Shown: piece after piece, positions 9,476 through 13,782 of the stretch
How positions within the stretch are numbered: position 1 is the stretch's first letter
Layout: each line of letters begins with the position of its first letter
NCBI GenBank assembly: GCA_004212095.1
Contig: RXIJ01000033.1
Span: forward strand, 1 to 43,014
Length of the DNA stretch: 43,014 nt
Direction of reading: 5' to 3'
Source: Methanosarcinales archaeon
GTDB taxonomy: Archaea; Halobacteriota; Methanosarcinia; Methanosarcinales; EX4572-44
Translations under genes and position numbers: made by a program
The notes under the pieces: model-generated
The model's input: the letters and a program-made list of their open reading frames with translations, nothing else
What the model was told of the DNA's origin: nothing
The model's database searches: none

Positions 9476-9845
9476 GTCACTATACCCTGTGCTTATAGGT
9501 ACAGGGATTGTTAGCGTTTTTGGCATACAAAGGTTTCATTTTTATTTTGTCTTGTGTAGAGATATATTTCTCCACAACTTCCAGATCCATGATAGCATCC
9601 CGGAGCCAATATGTGATTGAGTCACCATTCCTTTAGATGTGGAAAGTGTTGTCTCAATATTCTACTGCTTCTACTTTTTATCTTCTTGGCTTATACAGCT
9701 TACAGAATACTTTGGTGGATATTTTATGAAGAGGTGGACGTGATCAACATTCACAGCCATATCTATGATTTGAATGTCAATTTCACTGCACGTTTTTCTG
9801 ATGATACCTTCTGTAACAAGGGTAAATCCCCAACCAATATTTTTC
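9476..9845 (-). mobile_element. IS200/IS605 TnpA (Y1 HUH transposase) remnant with end hairpin
   Basis: The minus strand reads MAVNVDHVHLFIKYPPKYSVS (HUH motif), then frameshifted SSRILRQHFPHLKEW. End GTCACTATACCCTGTGCTTATAGGTACAGGG at 9476-9506. Confidence 0.85.
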
Positions 9846-10104
9846 CTTGACTTTCAAAGAAGCGTAAATTGACCCACTGATTTTTCTTAAAAACCGTTAG
9901 CCATTGGACACGTTGCGGTCATGCAAGATGTATGACCTAACTTTTGATATTACCATAGTGTTGCCTCGCACAAAAAATAGATGGAAAGCTATGAAAGAAG
10001 AAAGGCAAAGATACTTGAGAAACTTGCTGATCTGCAACGAAGGCTTGAGAGCAACAGAGGCAAGGAGCGGGATGTAAGTTTTTAGGGTATGTTTGAAAGT
10101 CAAG
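9846..10104. mobile_element. 259-bp MITE-like element with 13-bp perfect inverted ends
   Basis: CTTGACTTTCAAA (9846-9858) and TTTGAAAGTCAAG (10092-10104). Internal fragment MESYERRKAKILEKLADLQRRLESNRGKER, tentatively IS1634-like. Confidence 0.6.
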
Positions 10105-11189: not shown

Positions 11190-11492
11190 ATGATTACTGC
11201 TTACATATCAACCCTTGCCTTTGTGGTGATATTGTTTCTGACACTGCGGGATATTCGCATATTTCATAGAACCAATATTTATGCCTACAGAAGGGGAGCA
11301 CTTCGCGGATTAATTGCAGGTTTTGTTGCACTGTTTGGTCTTATGCTCTCAATTAATCCGGACATTTCTCCAACGATAGGATTGCTGTTAACATTTATCG
11401 CTGTTATGATAAATAAAAAAGAAGCAAGAAAGGATATATTCACACATAATGAAACCACACTCCAGCGATTTCTTGGTGCAGGTAATAAATAA
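11190..11492 (+). CDS. Hypothetical three-helix membrane protein
   Basis: Hydrophobic ORF with TLRDIRIFHRT...AYRRGALRG; abuts the HARP gene. Confidence 0.7.
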   Translation: MITAYISTLAFVVILFLTLRDIRIFHRTNIYAYRRGALRGLIAGFVALFGLMLSINPDISPTIGLLLTFIAVMINKKEARKDIFTHNETTLQRFLGAGNK

Positions 11493-11610
11493 TGTTTGGT
11501 GACTCACAAAAACTGTATGTGAGCGAAACCCGCAGGCATCACGCGGGCGTGGCGTTTATACTTTCATATACGTTAAAAAATATTAAAAAAATATAGTAAT
11601 ATTTTACAGA

Positions 11611-11829
11611 CTATAACTTATCTTTCAAGGCTTGCTTTATATCCTCTGCAGTTACAGTCACTCGATTAGCATGCTTTGCAAGATCAACAGCGCGTCTTGC
11701 AATCTTGGTGCCGTATTCTTCGAGATGCTCTGCCAAAGCTTCGCGTCCAGTTTCACTAACTCGGGTTGCACCCGCACGTTTGATAATTCGCCCTACCGGA
11801 GCGAATGATAATATATTTGTTTTTGCCAT
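11611..11829 (-). CDS. Archaeal histone (HMf family), 72 aa
   Basis: [19 protein letters not shown]...[14 protein letters not shown]. The true start is the ATG at 11829; the longer 119-aa ORF reads through a non-coding element. Confidence 0.93.
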
Positions 11830-11851
11830 ATAATCACTTCGTTTATCCAAT

Positions 11852-12195
11852 AGCCGAGAAGACCCCTTGCGATAGCTGAGGGATGAATCGGCTCCTTTTT
11901 TTGTGGGCAGTTTAACATAATGGTAGTCGCAACTACATGCCAGACCTGGCCCAGGTCTGTTGGTTCTCATTGGGATTGTTAAGAGGGGGTTTTTAAACCT
12001 GTCACACTGAGAGTTTCCTCTCTATTTAATGACAAATCACAGTTGCTACGGACTTGGGGAGCATCCATAGGTGTGTATGTATTTATCCTTCCTAACTGCT
12101 GCGTGTTTTCCTTTCTTTTGCTTTCGCTCCCTAATCAACCAGTTGCCCTTGCTCCTCACGGTGCAAGCCCCTTCCGAGAGGGAGGGGTGATTGAC
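11852..12195 (-). mobile_element. Non-autonomous IS200/IS605 (IscB/IsrB-type) element: omega-RNA scaffold plus end hairpin, nuclease ORF absent
   Basis: Starts GTCAATCACCCC at 12195 and ends in the hairpin AGCCGATTCATCCCTCAGCTATCGCAAGGGGTCTTCTCGGCT (11893-11852). Only about 50 nt lie between scaffold and end. Confidence 0.75.
11941..12195 (-). ncRNA. HEARO / omega-RNA-like structured RNA (orphan)
   Basis: Stems in HEARO-like order: GTCAATCA/TGGTTGAT, CCCCTCC/GGAAGGGG, CTTGCACC-GTGA-GGAGCAAG, CTATGGA/TCCGTAG after ACACAC, TTTGTCA/TGACAGG enclosing TTAAA and GAGAG-GAAA-CTCTC, GTTAGGAAGG/CCCTCTTAAC, terminal CAGACCTG/CAGGTCTG. The 3' end is approximate. Confidence 0.8.
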
Positions 12196-12263
12196 CTAAG
12201 TTGACTAATAGTGGGGTAATACTCCACATACAGCCAATTAAAGCTCTAATTTAGAATTAACGG

Positions 12264-12277
12264 TATATAAACCTTGT
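12264..12277 (-). promoter_or_regulatory. Putative BRE-TATA promoter for the omega-RNA/histone transcript
   Basis: The minus strand reads ACAAGG-TTTATATA; TATA at 12271-12264, about 70 bp upstream of the scaffold. Confidence 0.6.
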
Positions 12278-12403
12278 GTAATCATTGAGCTCATTCTTTC
12301 CTGTTTCAAGTGCTATTGTGTTATCAATCAATGAAAAGTGTGAATAATCCTGCTTCTCCGAAATCCATCAAGTCTCTGACTACAGGTTGATGTTAAGAGT
12401 TAG

Positions 12404-12453
12404 GCTAATTAGTAAAATGCTAATTAGTAAATAGCTTGCGAAGATTTTATATA
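12404..12453 (+). promoter_or_regulatory. Tandem 13-bp repeats plus BRE-TATA upstream of gar1-tfb
   Basis: GCTAATTAGTAAA at 12404 and 12419; GAAGAT-TTTATATA at 12440-12453. Confidence 0.55.
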
Positions 12454-12496
12454 CTATTAATAACATGTATATTAATGGTGTGAACGAGGTGAATAC

Positions 12497-12736
12497 TTGA
12501 AGCGTTTAGGTGTAATACTTCATGTGATACACAATGGTAACTTGATAGCACGGAGTGTTACTAAACTAACAAACACTGCATTAAATACTACTGTCTGGAA
12601 TGAACAGGTAAAAAAGATTGGAAAAATTGTAGACATATTTGGTCCGGTGTCGAGACCGTATTTTTCAATAAAGCCTTCTAAAAAGTCGGATTTTAAGATA
12701 CATGAACTAAAAGATAAAAATTTATATTTAAAATAA
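12497..12736 (+). CDS. gar1: H/ACA RNP component Gar1/Naf1
   Basis: KRLGVILH...IGKIVDIFGPVSRPY; lies upstream of tfb, a conserved archaeal arrangement. Confidence 0.88.
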   Translation: MKRLGVILHVIHNGNLIARSVTKLTNTALNTTVWNEQVKKIGKIVDIFGPVSRPYFSIKPSKKSDFKIHELKDKNLYLK

Positions 12737-12771: not shown

Positions 12772-13782
12772 ATGTCAGAAACTGAAGTGATACGAGAGAA
12801 CATATTGTCTGAGCGAAAAAAAATAAAAGAAGTCATCAAACAAAAAAAAGAGAGAGAAAAATCTGAACTTGAAAAAACACAAATCGAGTGCCCAGAGTGT
12901 GGTAGCTACAATCTTGTTCATGATTATGAAAGGGCAGAACTCGTGTGCAGTGACTGTGGGCTTGTAATAGATACAAACTTTATTGACCAGGGGCCGGAGT
13001 GGAGAGCCTTTGATAATGATCAACGAATGAAACGTTCAAGAGTTGGTGCACCTATGACATACACCATTCACGACAAAGGTTTGTCCACGATGATTGACTG
13101 GCGAAACAGGGATACGTATGGAAAATCCATTTCTGCCAAAAATCGTGCACAGTTGTACCGACTACGAAAATGGCAGCGCCGCATACGGGTAAGCAATGCG
13201 ACAGAGAGAAACCTCGCCTTTGCATTATCGGAACTGGATCGGATGGCATCAGCCCTTGCACTATCTCGAAACATCAGAGAAACTGCTGCTGTTGTCTATC
13301 GAAAGGCAGTCGGGAAAAACCTCATACGCGGTCGAAGCATCGAAGGTGTGGCAGCATCAGCTTTGTATGCAGCATGCCGACAATGTAACGTGCCGCGAAC
13401 ACTTGATGAGATAGGCGAAATCTCAAGAGTTAGCAGAAAAGAGATCGGAAGAACCTATCGATTCGTTGCCAGGGAATTAAGCCTCAAACTAACCCCAACA
13501 TCTCCAGTGGATTATGTGCCTCGCTTCTGCTCAGGATTGCATCTTAAAGGTGAAGTAGAAAGCAAAACCGTGGAAATACTGCGACAGGCAGCTGAAAAAG
13601 AACTCACGAGTGGGCGAGGCCCAACCGGGGTTGCAGCTGCAGCCATATATATTGCATCCATCCTCAACGGGGACAGAAGAACCCAGCGCGAAGTTGCGGA
13701 TGTTGCAGGGGTAACAGAGGTAACCATACGCAATCGATACAAGGAACTCGCAGAAGAACTTGACATAGAAATCATACTCTAA
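12772..13782 (+). CDS. tfb: Transcription initiation factor IIB
   Basis: Zn ribbon CPECG...CSDCG, GPEWRAF, two cyclin repeats, [13 protein letters not shown]. Confidence 0.98.

What the first reader, a model, noticed from the sequence alone, without database searches (positions are those of the whole stretch)
11830..12277. Orphan HEARO/omega-RNA mini-transposon between the histone gene and its putative promoter
Seen (minus strand, in order): a TATA box (12271-12264); a roughly 255-nt multi-stem RNA starting GTCAATCACCCC with the stem order of HEARO/omega-RNA; about 50 nt of spacer with no iscB/isrB ORF; an IS200/IS605-type end hairpin (11893-11852); then 22 nt to the histone ATG. Established: HEARO RNAs are the scaffolds of IscB/IsrB OMEGA RNA-guided nucleases, the guide lies 5' of the scaffold, and standalone omega-RNAs acting in trans are known. 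Inference: the histone promoter would drive a chimeric guide-omegaRNA-histone transcript. The guide would be the native leader (about CCCACTATTAGTCAACTTAG, 12215-12196), which matches element-free histone alleles. It could be a trans-acting guide protecting its own insertion, or a domesticated structured leader controlling a chromatin gene. Caveat: the expected partner of the TCCCCA loop reads TGAGAA, which may indicate decay.
Basis: partly seen in the sequence, partly recalled or inferred. Interest (0 to 1): 0.88.

Follow-up and report, generated by a model that had tools for sequence, protein, structure and literature searches.

The report
Orphan omega-RNA mini-transposon in histone leader
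A 349-base leftover of an IscB-type transposon, keeping its guide-RNA scaffold and one transposase hairpin but not the nuclease gene, sits between an archaeal histone gene and its likely promoter; this is a known kind of selfish element and probably no longer a working guide RNA.

Summary
Window 12195..11959 (-) is a full-length Rfam HEARO/IscB omega-RNA match (108.8 bits, cut-off 83). A same-genus genome and contigs from four metagenome runs join 11846 directly to 12196. The insert is therefore exactly 349 bp (11847-12195), with no target duplication. It holds the omega-RNA, two further 3' hairpins, and a 49-nt IS200/IS605-type end hairpin. The iscB ORF is missing.

It lies 17 nt upstream of the only histone ATG found in the genome. 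It lies downstream of the only exact TTTATATA box in the intergenic region.

The genome also holds two intact IscB elements, one broken one and one intact TnpA. One intact element (contig C106) uses the same target-adjacent motif, ATAAA.

Two results argue against present guide activity. The covarying loop-tail ("nexus") pseudoknot is broken here: 4 of 6 pairs, the worst of 59 copies compared. The scaffold is also only 64% identical to C106's.

In a 151-genome order sample, 12 of 58 informative HEARO copies lack iscB, and omega-RNA-bearing PATEs are in print. Verdict: new member of a known kind, recent and lineage-specific, not a domesticated leader.

The parts
12264..12271 (-). Putative histone promoter TATA box (TTTATATA)
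   Evidence: It is the only exact TTTAWATA match on this strand between gar1 and the histone ATG. It is conserved in G003. Its promoter function is inferred, not shown.
12196..12215 (-). Guide-equivalent flank (CCCACTATTAGTCAACTTAG), immediately 5' of the scaffold and outside the element
   Evidence: It abuts the first scaffold base. Its 12- to 20-nt suffixes occur only once in the 1.46-Mb assembly, at this site. In the G003 empty site, 19 of 20 nt are identical and the sequence is followed by ATAAAC.
11847..12195 (-). The whole 349-bp non-autonomous element (1-nt G ambiguity at the joint, no target-site duplication)
   Evidence: Empty site in G003:C9. A joint 11846->12196 that skips 349 bases appears in one contig of each of the runs X1, X3, X9 and X10.
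11959..12195 (-). HEARO / IscB omega-RNA scaffold (Rfam RF02033)
   Evidence: 108.8 bits against a cut-off of 83, E 1.1e-21, model 1-211 of 211.
12055..12060 (-). Pseudoknot loop hexamer UCCCCA
   Evidence: In IscB-linked copies this loop covaries with the tail hexamer.
11964..11969 (-). Pseudoknot tail hexamer UGAGAA, which forms only 4 of 6 pairs with the loop (two internal C.A mismatches)
   Evidence: The longest contiguous loop-tail helix is 3 here, against 4-7 in the other 58 copies.
11910..11959 (-). 3' extension of the omega-RNA beyond the Rfam model: hairpin 11959-11941, hairpin 11939-11916, and the conserved TTAAAC (11915-11910). In full copies the IscB ORF (MRVFVLNMRG...) begins in this region.
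   Evidence: Side-by-side sequences and alignment with the C106, C62 and C117 copies. In the window ATG is followed directly by TAG and no IscB reading frame follows.
11847..11895 (+). TnpA-type subterminal imperfect hairpin (the transposon 'left end' on the window + strand)
   Evidence: DNA fold -8.2 kcal/mol, z -1.98. It is 83-84% identical to stretches in G084:C44 and G086:C13. In G084 the stretch lies beside the start of a TnpB-like ORF in the opposite orientation. Analogous hairpins lie at the same end of the C106, C62, G100:C23 and G002:C80 elements.
11841..11846 (-). Target-adjacent motif ATAAAC (TTTAT on the + strand, directly 5' of the left end)
   Evidence: Junction sequences. The intact C106 IscB element has the same motif, ATAAAA.
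11611..11829 (-). Histone gene (72 aa), with a Shine-Dalgarno-like GTGAT at 11837-11833
   Evidence: PF00808 matches at 9.6e-15. It is the only PF00808 match in the 78.8%-complete assembly.

Best explanation
Window 11847-12195 is a 349-bp non-autonomous IS200/IS605-family element of the IscB (ISC) type, that is, a palindrome-associated mini-element (PATE). It keeps the complete omega-RNA scaffold, which in TnpA terms is the transposon right end. It also keeps a 49-nt TnpA-recognised left-end hairpin. Almost the whole iscB ORF has been lost.

A Y1 transposase supplied in trans pasted it, without target duplication, at TTAG^ATAAAC. That site lies in the 5' leader of the genome's only detected histone gene. 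The insertion happened after this lineage split from its same-genus relatives.

The element is in the sense orientation. It has no oligo-T tract and leaves the Shine-Dalgarno sequence and ATG untouched. The most likely state is therefore that the upstream TTTATATA promoter transcribes leader (guide), scaffold and histone as one RNA, and that the histone is still made (inferred).

The element is a selfish passenger, not a host-selected feature. Its scaffold has a disrupted nexus-type pseudoknot and no closely matching IscB in the assembly. It is therefore more likely a decaying relic than a competent trans guide (inferred, about 60:40).
For: Shown:
- Full-length HEARO match, 108.8 bits.
- Exact 349-bp insert with a 1-nt ambiguity and no duplication. 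G003 has the empty site, and so does one contig in each of 4 of 4 laid runs from 4 studies.
- No RRXRR domain follows this copy, while the other three genome copies have one.
- Alignment with full copies shows the omega-RNA retained up to the point where IscB starts, then a jump to the end hairpin.
- The end hairpin is shared with a TnpB-flanking end in G084.
- The same ATAAA motif flanks the intact C106 element, whose own empty site is in G003.
- One intact TnpA (159-aa open frame) and three fragments are in the genome.
- There is no other copy in G000, and nothing above 79% identity in 284 genomes of the order.

Read-through:
- The only exact TATA box is upstream of the insert.
- The longest T run on the sense strand is 3.
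- Predicted SD/ATG accessibility is the same with and without the insert, 0.20 against 0.19.
- The intact C62 element lies inside a folD/pterin-binding-gene ATGA stop-start overlap, so its downstream gene must be read through a 1.5-kb element.

Decay:
- The loop-tail pairing covaries across 20 distinct loop/tail combinations in 46 IscB-linked copies. The longest helix is 4-7 in those 46, in the 11 other orphans and in the broken-iscB copy C117. It is 3 in the window copy, with 4 of 6 in-register pairs.
- Disrupting omega-RNA pseudoknots abolished IsrB nicking (PMC9581776, passages).
- Scaffold identity to the genome's IscB-linked copies is 64%, 63% and 49%.

Known kind:
- PATEs 'often encode omega-RNAs' that are acted on in trans, and IscB omega-RNAs need transcription from outside the element (PMC10055086, passages).
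Against: - No RNA data of any kind exist, so co-transcription and continued histone expression are inference.
- The filled junctions are seen only in the window's own assembly. None of the four laid runs holds them.
- The HEARO score (108.8 bits) is as high as those of the two intact IscB-linked copies (114.9 and 101.9), so apart from the pseudoknot the scaffold is not visibly degraded.
- A large IscB-linked subfamily works with only a 4-bp pseudoknot in a shifted register (16 of 46 linked copies). How much pairing is needed is therefore not known.
- The pseudoknot comparison rests on a MAFFT alignment and on my mapping of this pairing to the published 'nexus pseudoknot'.
- The assembly is 78.8% complete, so a cognate IscB could be unassembled.
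- No close full-length relative was found, so the deletion end-points are approximate.
Confidence: 0.75

Rival explanations
1. Active trans guide. The histone promoter makes a leader-scaffold RNA that is functional. An IscB encoded elsewhere, most likely the C106 copy, loads it. That complex cuts any chromosome copy from which the element has been excised (guide match plus ATAAAC). Recombination with a filled copy then restores the element. The mini-element is thus kept in place without its own nuclease.
For: - Two intact IscB genes (396 and 419 aa, RRXRR plus HNH) are in the genome.
- The C106 element has the same target-adjacent motif, ATAAA(A), as the mini-element, ATAAA(C).
- The first 66 scaffold nt are 88% identical to C106.
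- The guide is unique in the assembly, and the filled site lacks the motif, so there is no self-targeting.
- Standalone omega-RNAs working with IscB, and omega-RNA-bearing PATEs, are in print (PMC9581776 passage citing its ref. 4; PMC10055086).
- The HEARO score is undiminished.
Against: - The pseudoknot has two internal mismatches, the worst of 59 copies.
- Disrupting a pseudoknot abolished activity in IsrB.
- Overall scaffold identity to C106 is only 64%, and cross-use between such scaffolds is untested.
- There is no expression evidence.
- In the minimum-free-energy fold, the guide's GUCAACU pairs with the 3' strand of the first helix, which could misfold the 5' end.
Confidence: 0.2
2. Element-borne promoter. 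Histone transcription now starts inside the element, for example about 25 nt downstream of the TATA-like TTTAAAAA at 11997-11990. The histone mRNA would then carry only the element's 3' hairpins. The guide plus scaffold RNA would be made separately or not at all.
For: Two one-mismatch TATA-like boxes lie inside the scaffold, at 12030-12023 and 11997-11990. Full-length elements must express IscB from somewhere. The histone is the only one detected, so its expression has to be maintained somehow.
Against: These A/U-rich stretches are conserved single-stranded parts of the HEARO consensus, so their presence is explained by the RNA. The C106 copy lacks the TTTAAAAA box at that place. The exact consensus TATA box lies upstream of the insert. 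The literature states that IscB omega-RNAs rely on transcription from outside.
Confidence: 0.12
3. Domesticated structured leader. The host has co-opted the folded omega-RNA as a cis-regulatory 5' UTR that tunes histone synthesis.
For: The position is between promoter and ORF of the sole detected histone gene. The RNA is strongly folded: minimum free energy -109.4 kcal/mol, z -2.55.
Against: - The insert is absent from the same-genus genome G003 and from all four related metagenome alleles, so nothing shows conservation.
- It carries a complete transposon end and exact transposon borders.
- Predicted SD/ATG accessibility is unchanged by the insert.
- Other mini-elements of the same kind lie before unrelated genes, namely aEF-2 and a P-loop ATPase-like gene.
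Confidence: 0.03
4. Assembly artefact. The metagenome assembler joined a HEARO-containing fragment into the histone locus.
For: The genome is a 119-contig, 78.8%-complete assembly. The filled junctions were not seen in any laid run.
Against: The insert has exact transposon borders. It starts at scaffold base 1, ends 9 nt after the conserved GTCTTC of the end hairpin, is flanked by the expected ATAAA motif, and neither loses nor gains any host base. A chimeric join would not produce this. Only one copy of the sequence exists in the assembly, so there is no repeat to cause a collapse.
Confidence: 0.03

Closest known systems
IscB omega-RNA / HEARO RNA (Rfam RF02033)
   Same: Full-length covariance-model match above the curated cut-off. 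The 5' end coincides with the transposon boundary, and the guide position lies outside the element. The extra 3' hairpins are as in the IscB-linked copies of the same genome.
   Different: No iscB ORF follows it. The covarying loop-tail pseudoknot is mismatched at two of six positions.
ISC / IS200-IS605 non-autonomous transposons and PATEs (Kapitonov et al. 2016, PMC4810608; Meers et al. 2023 preprint, PMC10055086; passages read for both)
   Same: No target-site duplication. A subterminal imperfect hairpin shared with a TnpB-type element in antisense orientation. An AT-rich target-adjacent motif (TTTAT on the top strand, the same string that Meers et al. give as the wild-type TAM of GstTnpB2). 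TnpA is encoded elsewhere. The published statement that PATEs often encode omega-RNAs applies.
   Different: It is a single copy. No second copy exists in this genome, and none above 79% identity in 284 genomes of the order. Mobility as a family is therefore not shown. The host is an archaeon related to ANME-2/Methanosarcinales. That placement is judged only from record titles of IscB relatives.
Standalone (trans-acting) omega-RNAs reported for IscB (Altae-Tran et al. 2021; not read here, known only through the citing passage in PMC9581776, and from recall)
   Same: An omega-RNA locus without an adjacent nuclease, in a genome that encodes IscB elsewhere, with its own distinct guide.
   Different: Here the locus still has a transposon end and exact transposon borders. 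The scaffold is only 64% identical to that of the best candidate partner, and the pseudoknot is disrupted. Activity is untested.
The intact IscB elements of the same genome (C106:7673-9152, about 1.48 kb; C62, about 1.51 kb)
   Same: The same architecture at both ends. Sense orientation directly upstream of a host ORF: argJ for C106, and a pterin-binding-enzyme gene for C62. Both are absent from the sister genome G003. C106 shares the ATAAA motif.
   Different: They encode IscB of 396 and 419 aa and have perfect 6- to 7-bp pseudoknots. C62 uses ATGA as its motif.

Membership tests
HEARO / IscB omega-RNA (RF02033) | Covariance-model score at or above the curated gathering score over the whole model | tested here: met
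   108.8 bits against 83, model 1-211 of 211, E 1.1e-21.
HEARO / IscB omega-RNA (RF02033) | Loop-tail (nexus-type) pseudoknot formed | tested here: not met
   UCCCCA against UGAGAA gives 4 of 6 pairs, with two internal C.A mismatches. The longest contiguous helix is 3, against 4-7 in the 58 other copies (46 IscB-linked, 11 orphans, 1 with broken iscB).
HEARO / IscB omega-RNA (RF02033) | Immediately followed by an IscB/IsrB ORF (the 'associated ORF') | tested here: not met
   No PF14239 match follows it. Only 130 nt separate the end of the model from the histone ATG.
HEARO / IscB omega-RNA (RF02033) | The first scaffold base is the transposon boundary, and the guide is encoded by flanking DNA | tested here: met
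   The empty-site joint falls exactly before GTCAAT.
IS200/IS605-family non-autonomous element (ISC-type PATE) | Insertion without target-site duplication, next to a short conserved motif | tested here: met
   TTAG^ATAAAC with a 1-nt ambiguity and no duplication. The C106 element has the same ATAAA motif.
IS200/IS605-family non-autonomous element (ISC-type PATE) | Subterminal imperfect hairpin of the kind bound by Y1 TnpA | tested here: met
   The hairpin lies within 11895-11847. It is 83-84% identical to stretches in G084 and G086, and in G084 the stretch is beside the start of a TnpB-like ORF. Binding by TnpA was not tested.
IS200/IS605-family non-autonomous element (ISC-type PATE) | A Y1 transposase available in trans | tested here: inconclusive
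   One intact PF01797 ORF (159-aa open frame) lies at a contig end, and there are three fragments. Its own ends are off the contig, so matching of ends could not be checked.
IS200/IS605-family non-autonomous element (ISC-type PATE) | Several copies at different sites (evidence of mobility as a family) | tested here: not met
   It is a single copy in G000. The best match elsewhere is 79% identity over the scaffold only, in 284 genomes. Two exact-pattern scans of metagenome contigs gave 0 matches.
Trans-acting standalone omega-RNA | A compatible IscB in the same genome (same TAM, matching scaffold) | tested here: inconclusive
   The TAM matches C106. Scaffold identity is 64%. Compatibility cannot be judged from sequence.
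Trans-acting standalone omega-RNA | Expressed with its guide | not testable with these tools
   No RNA holder was listed.
Host-domesticated regulatory leader | Conserved at the same site in related lineages | tested here: not met
   Absent in G003 and in the related contigs of the 4 laid runs.

The most novel reading that the evidence does not exclude
In this ANME-2/Methanosarcinales-like lineage, IscB-type elements and their nuclease-less mini-derivatives may systematically settle, in the sense orientation, in the 5' leaders or start-codon junctions of strongly or constitutively expressed host genes. The cases seen here are the sole histone, aEF-2, argJ, and a folD/pterin-enzyme operon junction. 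The host promoter would then supply the externally encoded guide. The mini-element in the histone leader would be guarded in trans by the C106 IscB, which recognises the same ATAAA motif. Losing the element from the chromatin gene's leader would then be punished by a double-strand break.
Probability: 0.15. Interest if true: 0.6.

Novelty: new member of a known kind. Interest (0 to 1): 0.35.

Why it matters
It gives a cleanly delimited natural example, with filled and empty alleles, of an IscB-type omega-RNA that has lost its nuclease. It lies in an archaeon, inside the leader of what appears to be its only histone gene.

This supports two published ideas:
- IscB elements depend on host transcription for their guide.
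- Omega-RNA and nuclease are modular.

It also offers a simple test pair: the C106 IscB with the orphan RNA, with its pseudoknot as found or restored. That pair would show how much scaffold divergence trans-use tolerates.

For annotation, it shows that a high-scoring HEARO hit need not mean a working OMEGA system. It does not reveal a new mechanism.

Tried and rejected
- RNA evidence: the look-up of sequencing runs listed no RNA holder. Nothing can be said on expression.
- Laid contigs: they showed only empty alleles plus other HEARO copies with different flanks. Parts without cover are not interpreted.
- Source of the element: blastn against the three other genome copies gave only short 82-89% pieces. 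Searching the 349 bp in 284 genomes of the order gave at best 79% over the scaffold. Two exact-pattern scans of metagenome contigs for the unusual loop gave 0 matches. No ancestor or sister copy was found. I therefore cannot say whether the loop or the tail changed, or whether the element is a recombinant. Its tail CCAATGAGAACC is identical to C106's, while its middle is closest to C117, which hints at a mosaic.
- TnpB: PF07282 found none in G000.
- First pseudoknot parser: a rigid regular expression parsed only 10 of 59 copies and was dropped. It was replaced by a MAFFT-column method.
- Oligo-T argument: the absence of T runs of 4 or more in 349 nt is close to expectation for this composition (my estimate). 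It is permissive evidence, not positive evidence.
- aEF-2 empty site: the G002:C80 mini-element has no clean empty site in G000. The orthologous leader in G000:C45 holds 132 nt of hairpin repeats instead, and part of the G002 stretch is masked. This is reported only as 'element not present there in G000'.
- In-frame 119-aa ORF (11970..11611) that would extend the histone: judged to be chance. About 1 in 10 such 47-codon stretches are open, and there is no SD.
- Literature: listings showed no paper linking IscB/HEARO with histone genes or ANME. These were keyword listings only, and paper supplements are closed, so tables of orphan omega-RNAs in those papers could not be seen.
- Structure prediction, complex prediction, fold search and the large protein searches were not used, because nothing depended on them.
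Full report
WHAT IS THERE. On the minus strand the window reads, 5' to 3', as follows.
- A Gar1 gene (12497-12736, +) and a TFB gene (12772-13782, +) point away from the region.
- An intergenic region follows, with one exact archaeal TATA consensus, TTTATATA, at 12271-12264.
- Then comes a 20-nt stretch, CCCACTATTAGTCAACTTAG (12215-12196).
- A full-length match to Rfam HEARO (RF02033) begins at 12195 with GTCAATCACCCC and ends at 11959. It scores 108.8 bits against a gathering score of 83, E 1.1e-21, model positions 1-211 of 211.
- Two further hairpins follow (11959-11941 and 11939-11916), then a conserved TTAAAC.
- After about 15 nt comes an imperfect hairpin within 11895-11847.
- Then ATAAAC, a Shine-Dalgarno-like GTGAT, and the ATG (11829) of a 72-aa histone (PF00808, 9.6e-15).

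THE INSERT IS EXACTLY DELIMITED. A same-genus genome, G003, is 93-95% identical on both sides. There the sequence reads ...CCACTATTAGTCAACTTAG|ATAAACGAAGTGATT...ATG. The window differs by 349 extra bases between TTAG and ATAAAC, with a single ambiguous G and no target-site duplication.

I laid contigs from four metagenome runs, from four different studies, on 11400-12700. One contig in each of the 4 runs joins 11846 to 12196, skipping exactly 349 bases (table 5). None of the four shows the filled junctions. Their other matches to the scaffold end at 12195/12196 with unrelated flanks, so they are other HEARO copies. The insertion is therefore specific to this lineage. It is younger than the split from relatives that are about 4-7% diverged.

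WHAT KIND OF ELEMENT. The assembly is 1.46 Mb in 119 contigs and 78.8% complete. It holds four HEARO matches. Three are followed within about 30 nt by the IscB N-terminal RRXRR domain.
- Two of these IscB genes are intact: C106 at 396 aa and C62 at 419 aa, both with RRXRR plus HNH.
- One (C117) is broken.
- The window copy is the only one without iscB.

Comparison with the full copies shows that the mini-element keeps everything up to the TTAAAC. That is where IscB (MRVFVLNMRG...) starts inside the second extra hairpin. It then continues directly with the terminal approximately 49 nt.

That terminal hairpin recurs, at 83-84% identity, in G084 and G086. In G084 it lies beside the start of a TnpB-like ORF on the opposite strand. 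This matches what Kapitonov et al. described for ISC transposons that share termini with antisense TnpB elements (PMC4810608, passages). It also matches the statement of Meers et al. that the IscB omega-RNA scaffold derives from the transposon right end, with the guide outside the boundary (PMC10055086, passages). On the window + strand the element therefore has the canonical layout: TTTAT | left-end hairpin ... right end (scaffold).

One intact Y1 transposase (159-aa open frame, at a contig end) and three fragments are present. One fragment lies in the window at 9638-9862. No TnpB was found.

THE OTHER ELEMENTS GIVE CONTEXT. Empty sites for both intact IscB elements also exist in same-genus genomes.
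- The C106 element is inserted at GATT^ATAAAA, 26 nt upstream of an argJ ATG.
- The C62 element is inserted at TTACG^ATGA, exactly in the ATGA stop/start overlap between folD and a pterin-binding-enzyme gene. The IscB stop codon now overlaps the host ATG.

C106 thus shares its target-adjacent motif (ATAAA) with the mini-element, whereas C62 uses ATGA.

Two more nuclease-less HEARO elements with the same end architecture were seen. One is in same-genus G002, directly upstream of, and co-oriented with, aEF-2. The other is in G100, upstream of a weakly P-loop-ATPase-like gene.

I also took an even sample of 151 genomes of the order.
- 64 HEARO matches at or above the cut-off lie outside G224. That genome was dropped because its candidates were only partly scored.
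- 18 of the 64 have no RRXRR match within 700 nt downstream.
- 6 of those 18 sit at contig ends and are uninformative.
- That leaves 12 of 58 informative copies as interior orphans.

Orphan omega-RNAs are therefore common here. Meers et al. already state that PATEs often encode omega-RNAs that must be used in trans.

HOW IT MOST LIKELY WORKS. Arrival (inferred from anatomy): a TnpA supplied in trans pasted the single-stranded circle 3' of TTTAT, as in IS200/IS605 peel-and-paste transposition.

Transcription (inferred) rests on these points:
- The 17 nt left between the element and the ATG cannot hold a promoter.
- The only exact TATA box is 69 nt upstream of the insert.
- The element is in the sense orientation, and its longest sense-strand T run is 3.
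- The C62 case shows that a host gene can depend on read-through of a whole 1.5-kb element.

The predicted accessibility of the SD/ATG region is unchanged by the insert, 0.20 against 0.19. The histone is the only PF00808 match in the assembly, so expression has probably been kept. The alternative of an element-borne start near 11965, downstream of a TTTAAAAA at 11997-11990, cannot be excluded.

IS THE RNA STILL A GUIDE? For:
- Two intact IscBs are present, and one has the same motif.
- The guide is unique in the assembly and matches the empty site.
- The filled site lacks the motif.

Against:
- The hairpin loop at model positions about 111-119 pairs with the single strand between the outer helix and the next hairpin. 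By topology this is the 'nexus pseudoknot' of published IsrB/IscB omega-RNAs. Disrupting pseudoknot pairs abolished IsrB nicking (PMC9581776, passages).
- In the copies compared, this pairing covaries: TTCTCA/TGAGAA, TGCTCA/TGAGCA, TGCTCC/GGAGCA, TCCACT/AGTGGA, TTCCCT/AGGGAG, TTCACT/AGTGAA and TCCGCA/TGCGG. There are 20 distinct combinations among the 46 linked copies.
- The longest contiguous loop-tail helix is 4-7 in all 46 linked copies, 4-7 in the 11 other orphans, and 4 in the broken C117 copy. In the window copy it is 3.
- In register, the window copy forms 4 of 6 pairs, with two internal C.A mismatches (UCCCCA/UGAGAA).
- Scaffold identity to the IscB-linked copies of the genome is only 64% (C106), 63% (C117) and 49% (C62).

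Caveats:
- The count uses MAFFT columns, not a covariance-model alignment.
- 'Linked' means any RRXRR match within 700 nt, whether intact or not.
- One linked subfamily (16 copies) manages with a 4-bp helix in a shifted register.
- The rest of the scaffold scores as well as the intact copies.
- 21% of the genome is unassembled.

I put roughly 60:40 on 'relic' against 'still usable'.

COMPARISON AND NOVELTY. By membership tests, this is a HEARO/IscB omega-RNA (score and boundary met; ORF adjacency and pseudoknot not met). It lies inside an IS200/IS605-family, ISC-type non-autonomous element (no duplication, end hairpin and motif met; multi-copy mobility not met). Elements of this kind are in print.

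What is particular here is the host. It is an archaeon whose IscB relatives carry titles such as ANME-2 cluster, Methanosarcinales and Ethanoperedens. IscB is mobile, so this is a weak indication of taxonomy. Also particular are the place (the leader of the apparently sole histone gene) and the availability of filled and empty alleles. Keyword listings showed no paper on IscB/HEARO in histone leaders or in ANME. Paper supplements were closed.

I rate it a new member of a known kind, with moderate-to-low interest. The idea of a domesticated regulatory leader is not supported, because nothing shows conservation.

LIMITS.
- No RNA data were available.
- The filled allele is not independently confirmed.
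- No close relative of the element was found.
- The ends of the TnpA element are off its contig.

Noticed in passing
window 9638-9862 (-): A degenerate fragment of a Y1 (IS200/IS605) transposase: PF01797 positions 11-86, with three in-frame stops. It lies about 2 kb from the mini-element.
   Followed up: no
window ~11500-11590 (-), just downstream of the histone stop: After the histone's oligo-T tracts comes a promoter-like box, TTTTTAACGTATATGAAAGTATAAAC, followed by two hairpins and a T5 run. Boxes of 26-40 nt at about 90-97% identity recur in many genomes of the order. In G000:C79 they recur three times in tandem 86-nt units, each ending in a hairpin plus T5. This looks like a family of small-RNA genes or a conserved strong promoter. 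G003 carries a 339-bp insertion at this point.
   Followed up: partly
window 12301-12337: In two of the four laid runs (X3, X10) the depth in this stretch rises to about 50-80. Contigs there end with loose ends at 12301/12303 and 12337. A short repeated sequence therefore lies inside the histone/gar1 intergenic region. Its nature is unknown.
   Followed up: no
window 11611-11970 (-): An ATG inside the omega-RNA tail (AAUGAGAAC) opens a 119-aa frame that runs in phase into the histone, adding 47 residues at its N-terminus. This is probably chance and there is no SD, but a fusion product is formally possible.
   Followed up: no
L006 (G000:C62) 1246-2753: The intact 1.5-kb IscB element sits exactly in the ATGA stop/start overlap of folD and a pterin-binding-enzyme gene. 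FolD gains 5 codons before a new stop (...LR* becomes ...LRSRTPF*). The IscB stop codon overlaps the downstream host ATG (TGATG), as if translationally coupled.
   Followed up: partly
L042 (G002:C80), minus strand, about 1428-1780 of the reverse complement: In a same-genus genome, a second nuclease-less HEARO element (134 bits, perfect 6-bp pseudoknot) with an end hairpin lies directly upstream of, and co-oriented with, the aEF-2 gene. Part of its end is masked (N). G000 has no element at the orthologous site but has 132 nt of hairpin repeats there.
   Followed up: partly
G000:C79:2000-2400, G000:C45:3134-3265, L005 1148-1249: Short hairpin repeats of the type CTGCACAAC-GAAG-TTGTGCAG (and ACACAAC...GTTGTGT) recur in gene leaders and next to the C106 IscB element. 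They differ in number between G000 and G003. They may be REP- or MITE-like.
   Followed up: no
window 12196-12215 with 12195-12130 (-): The guide flank contains GTCAAC, close to the element's own first bases, GTCAAT. In the minimum-free-energy fold the guide pairs with the 3' strand of the first scaffold helix. This could compete with correct folding of the 5' end.
   Followed up: no
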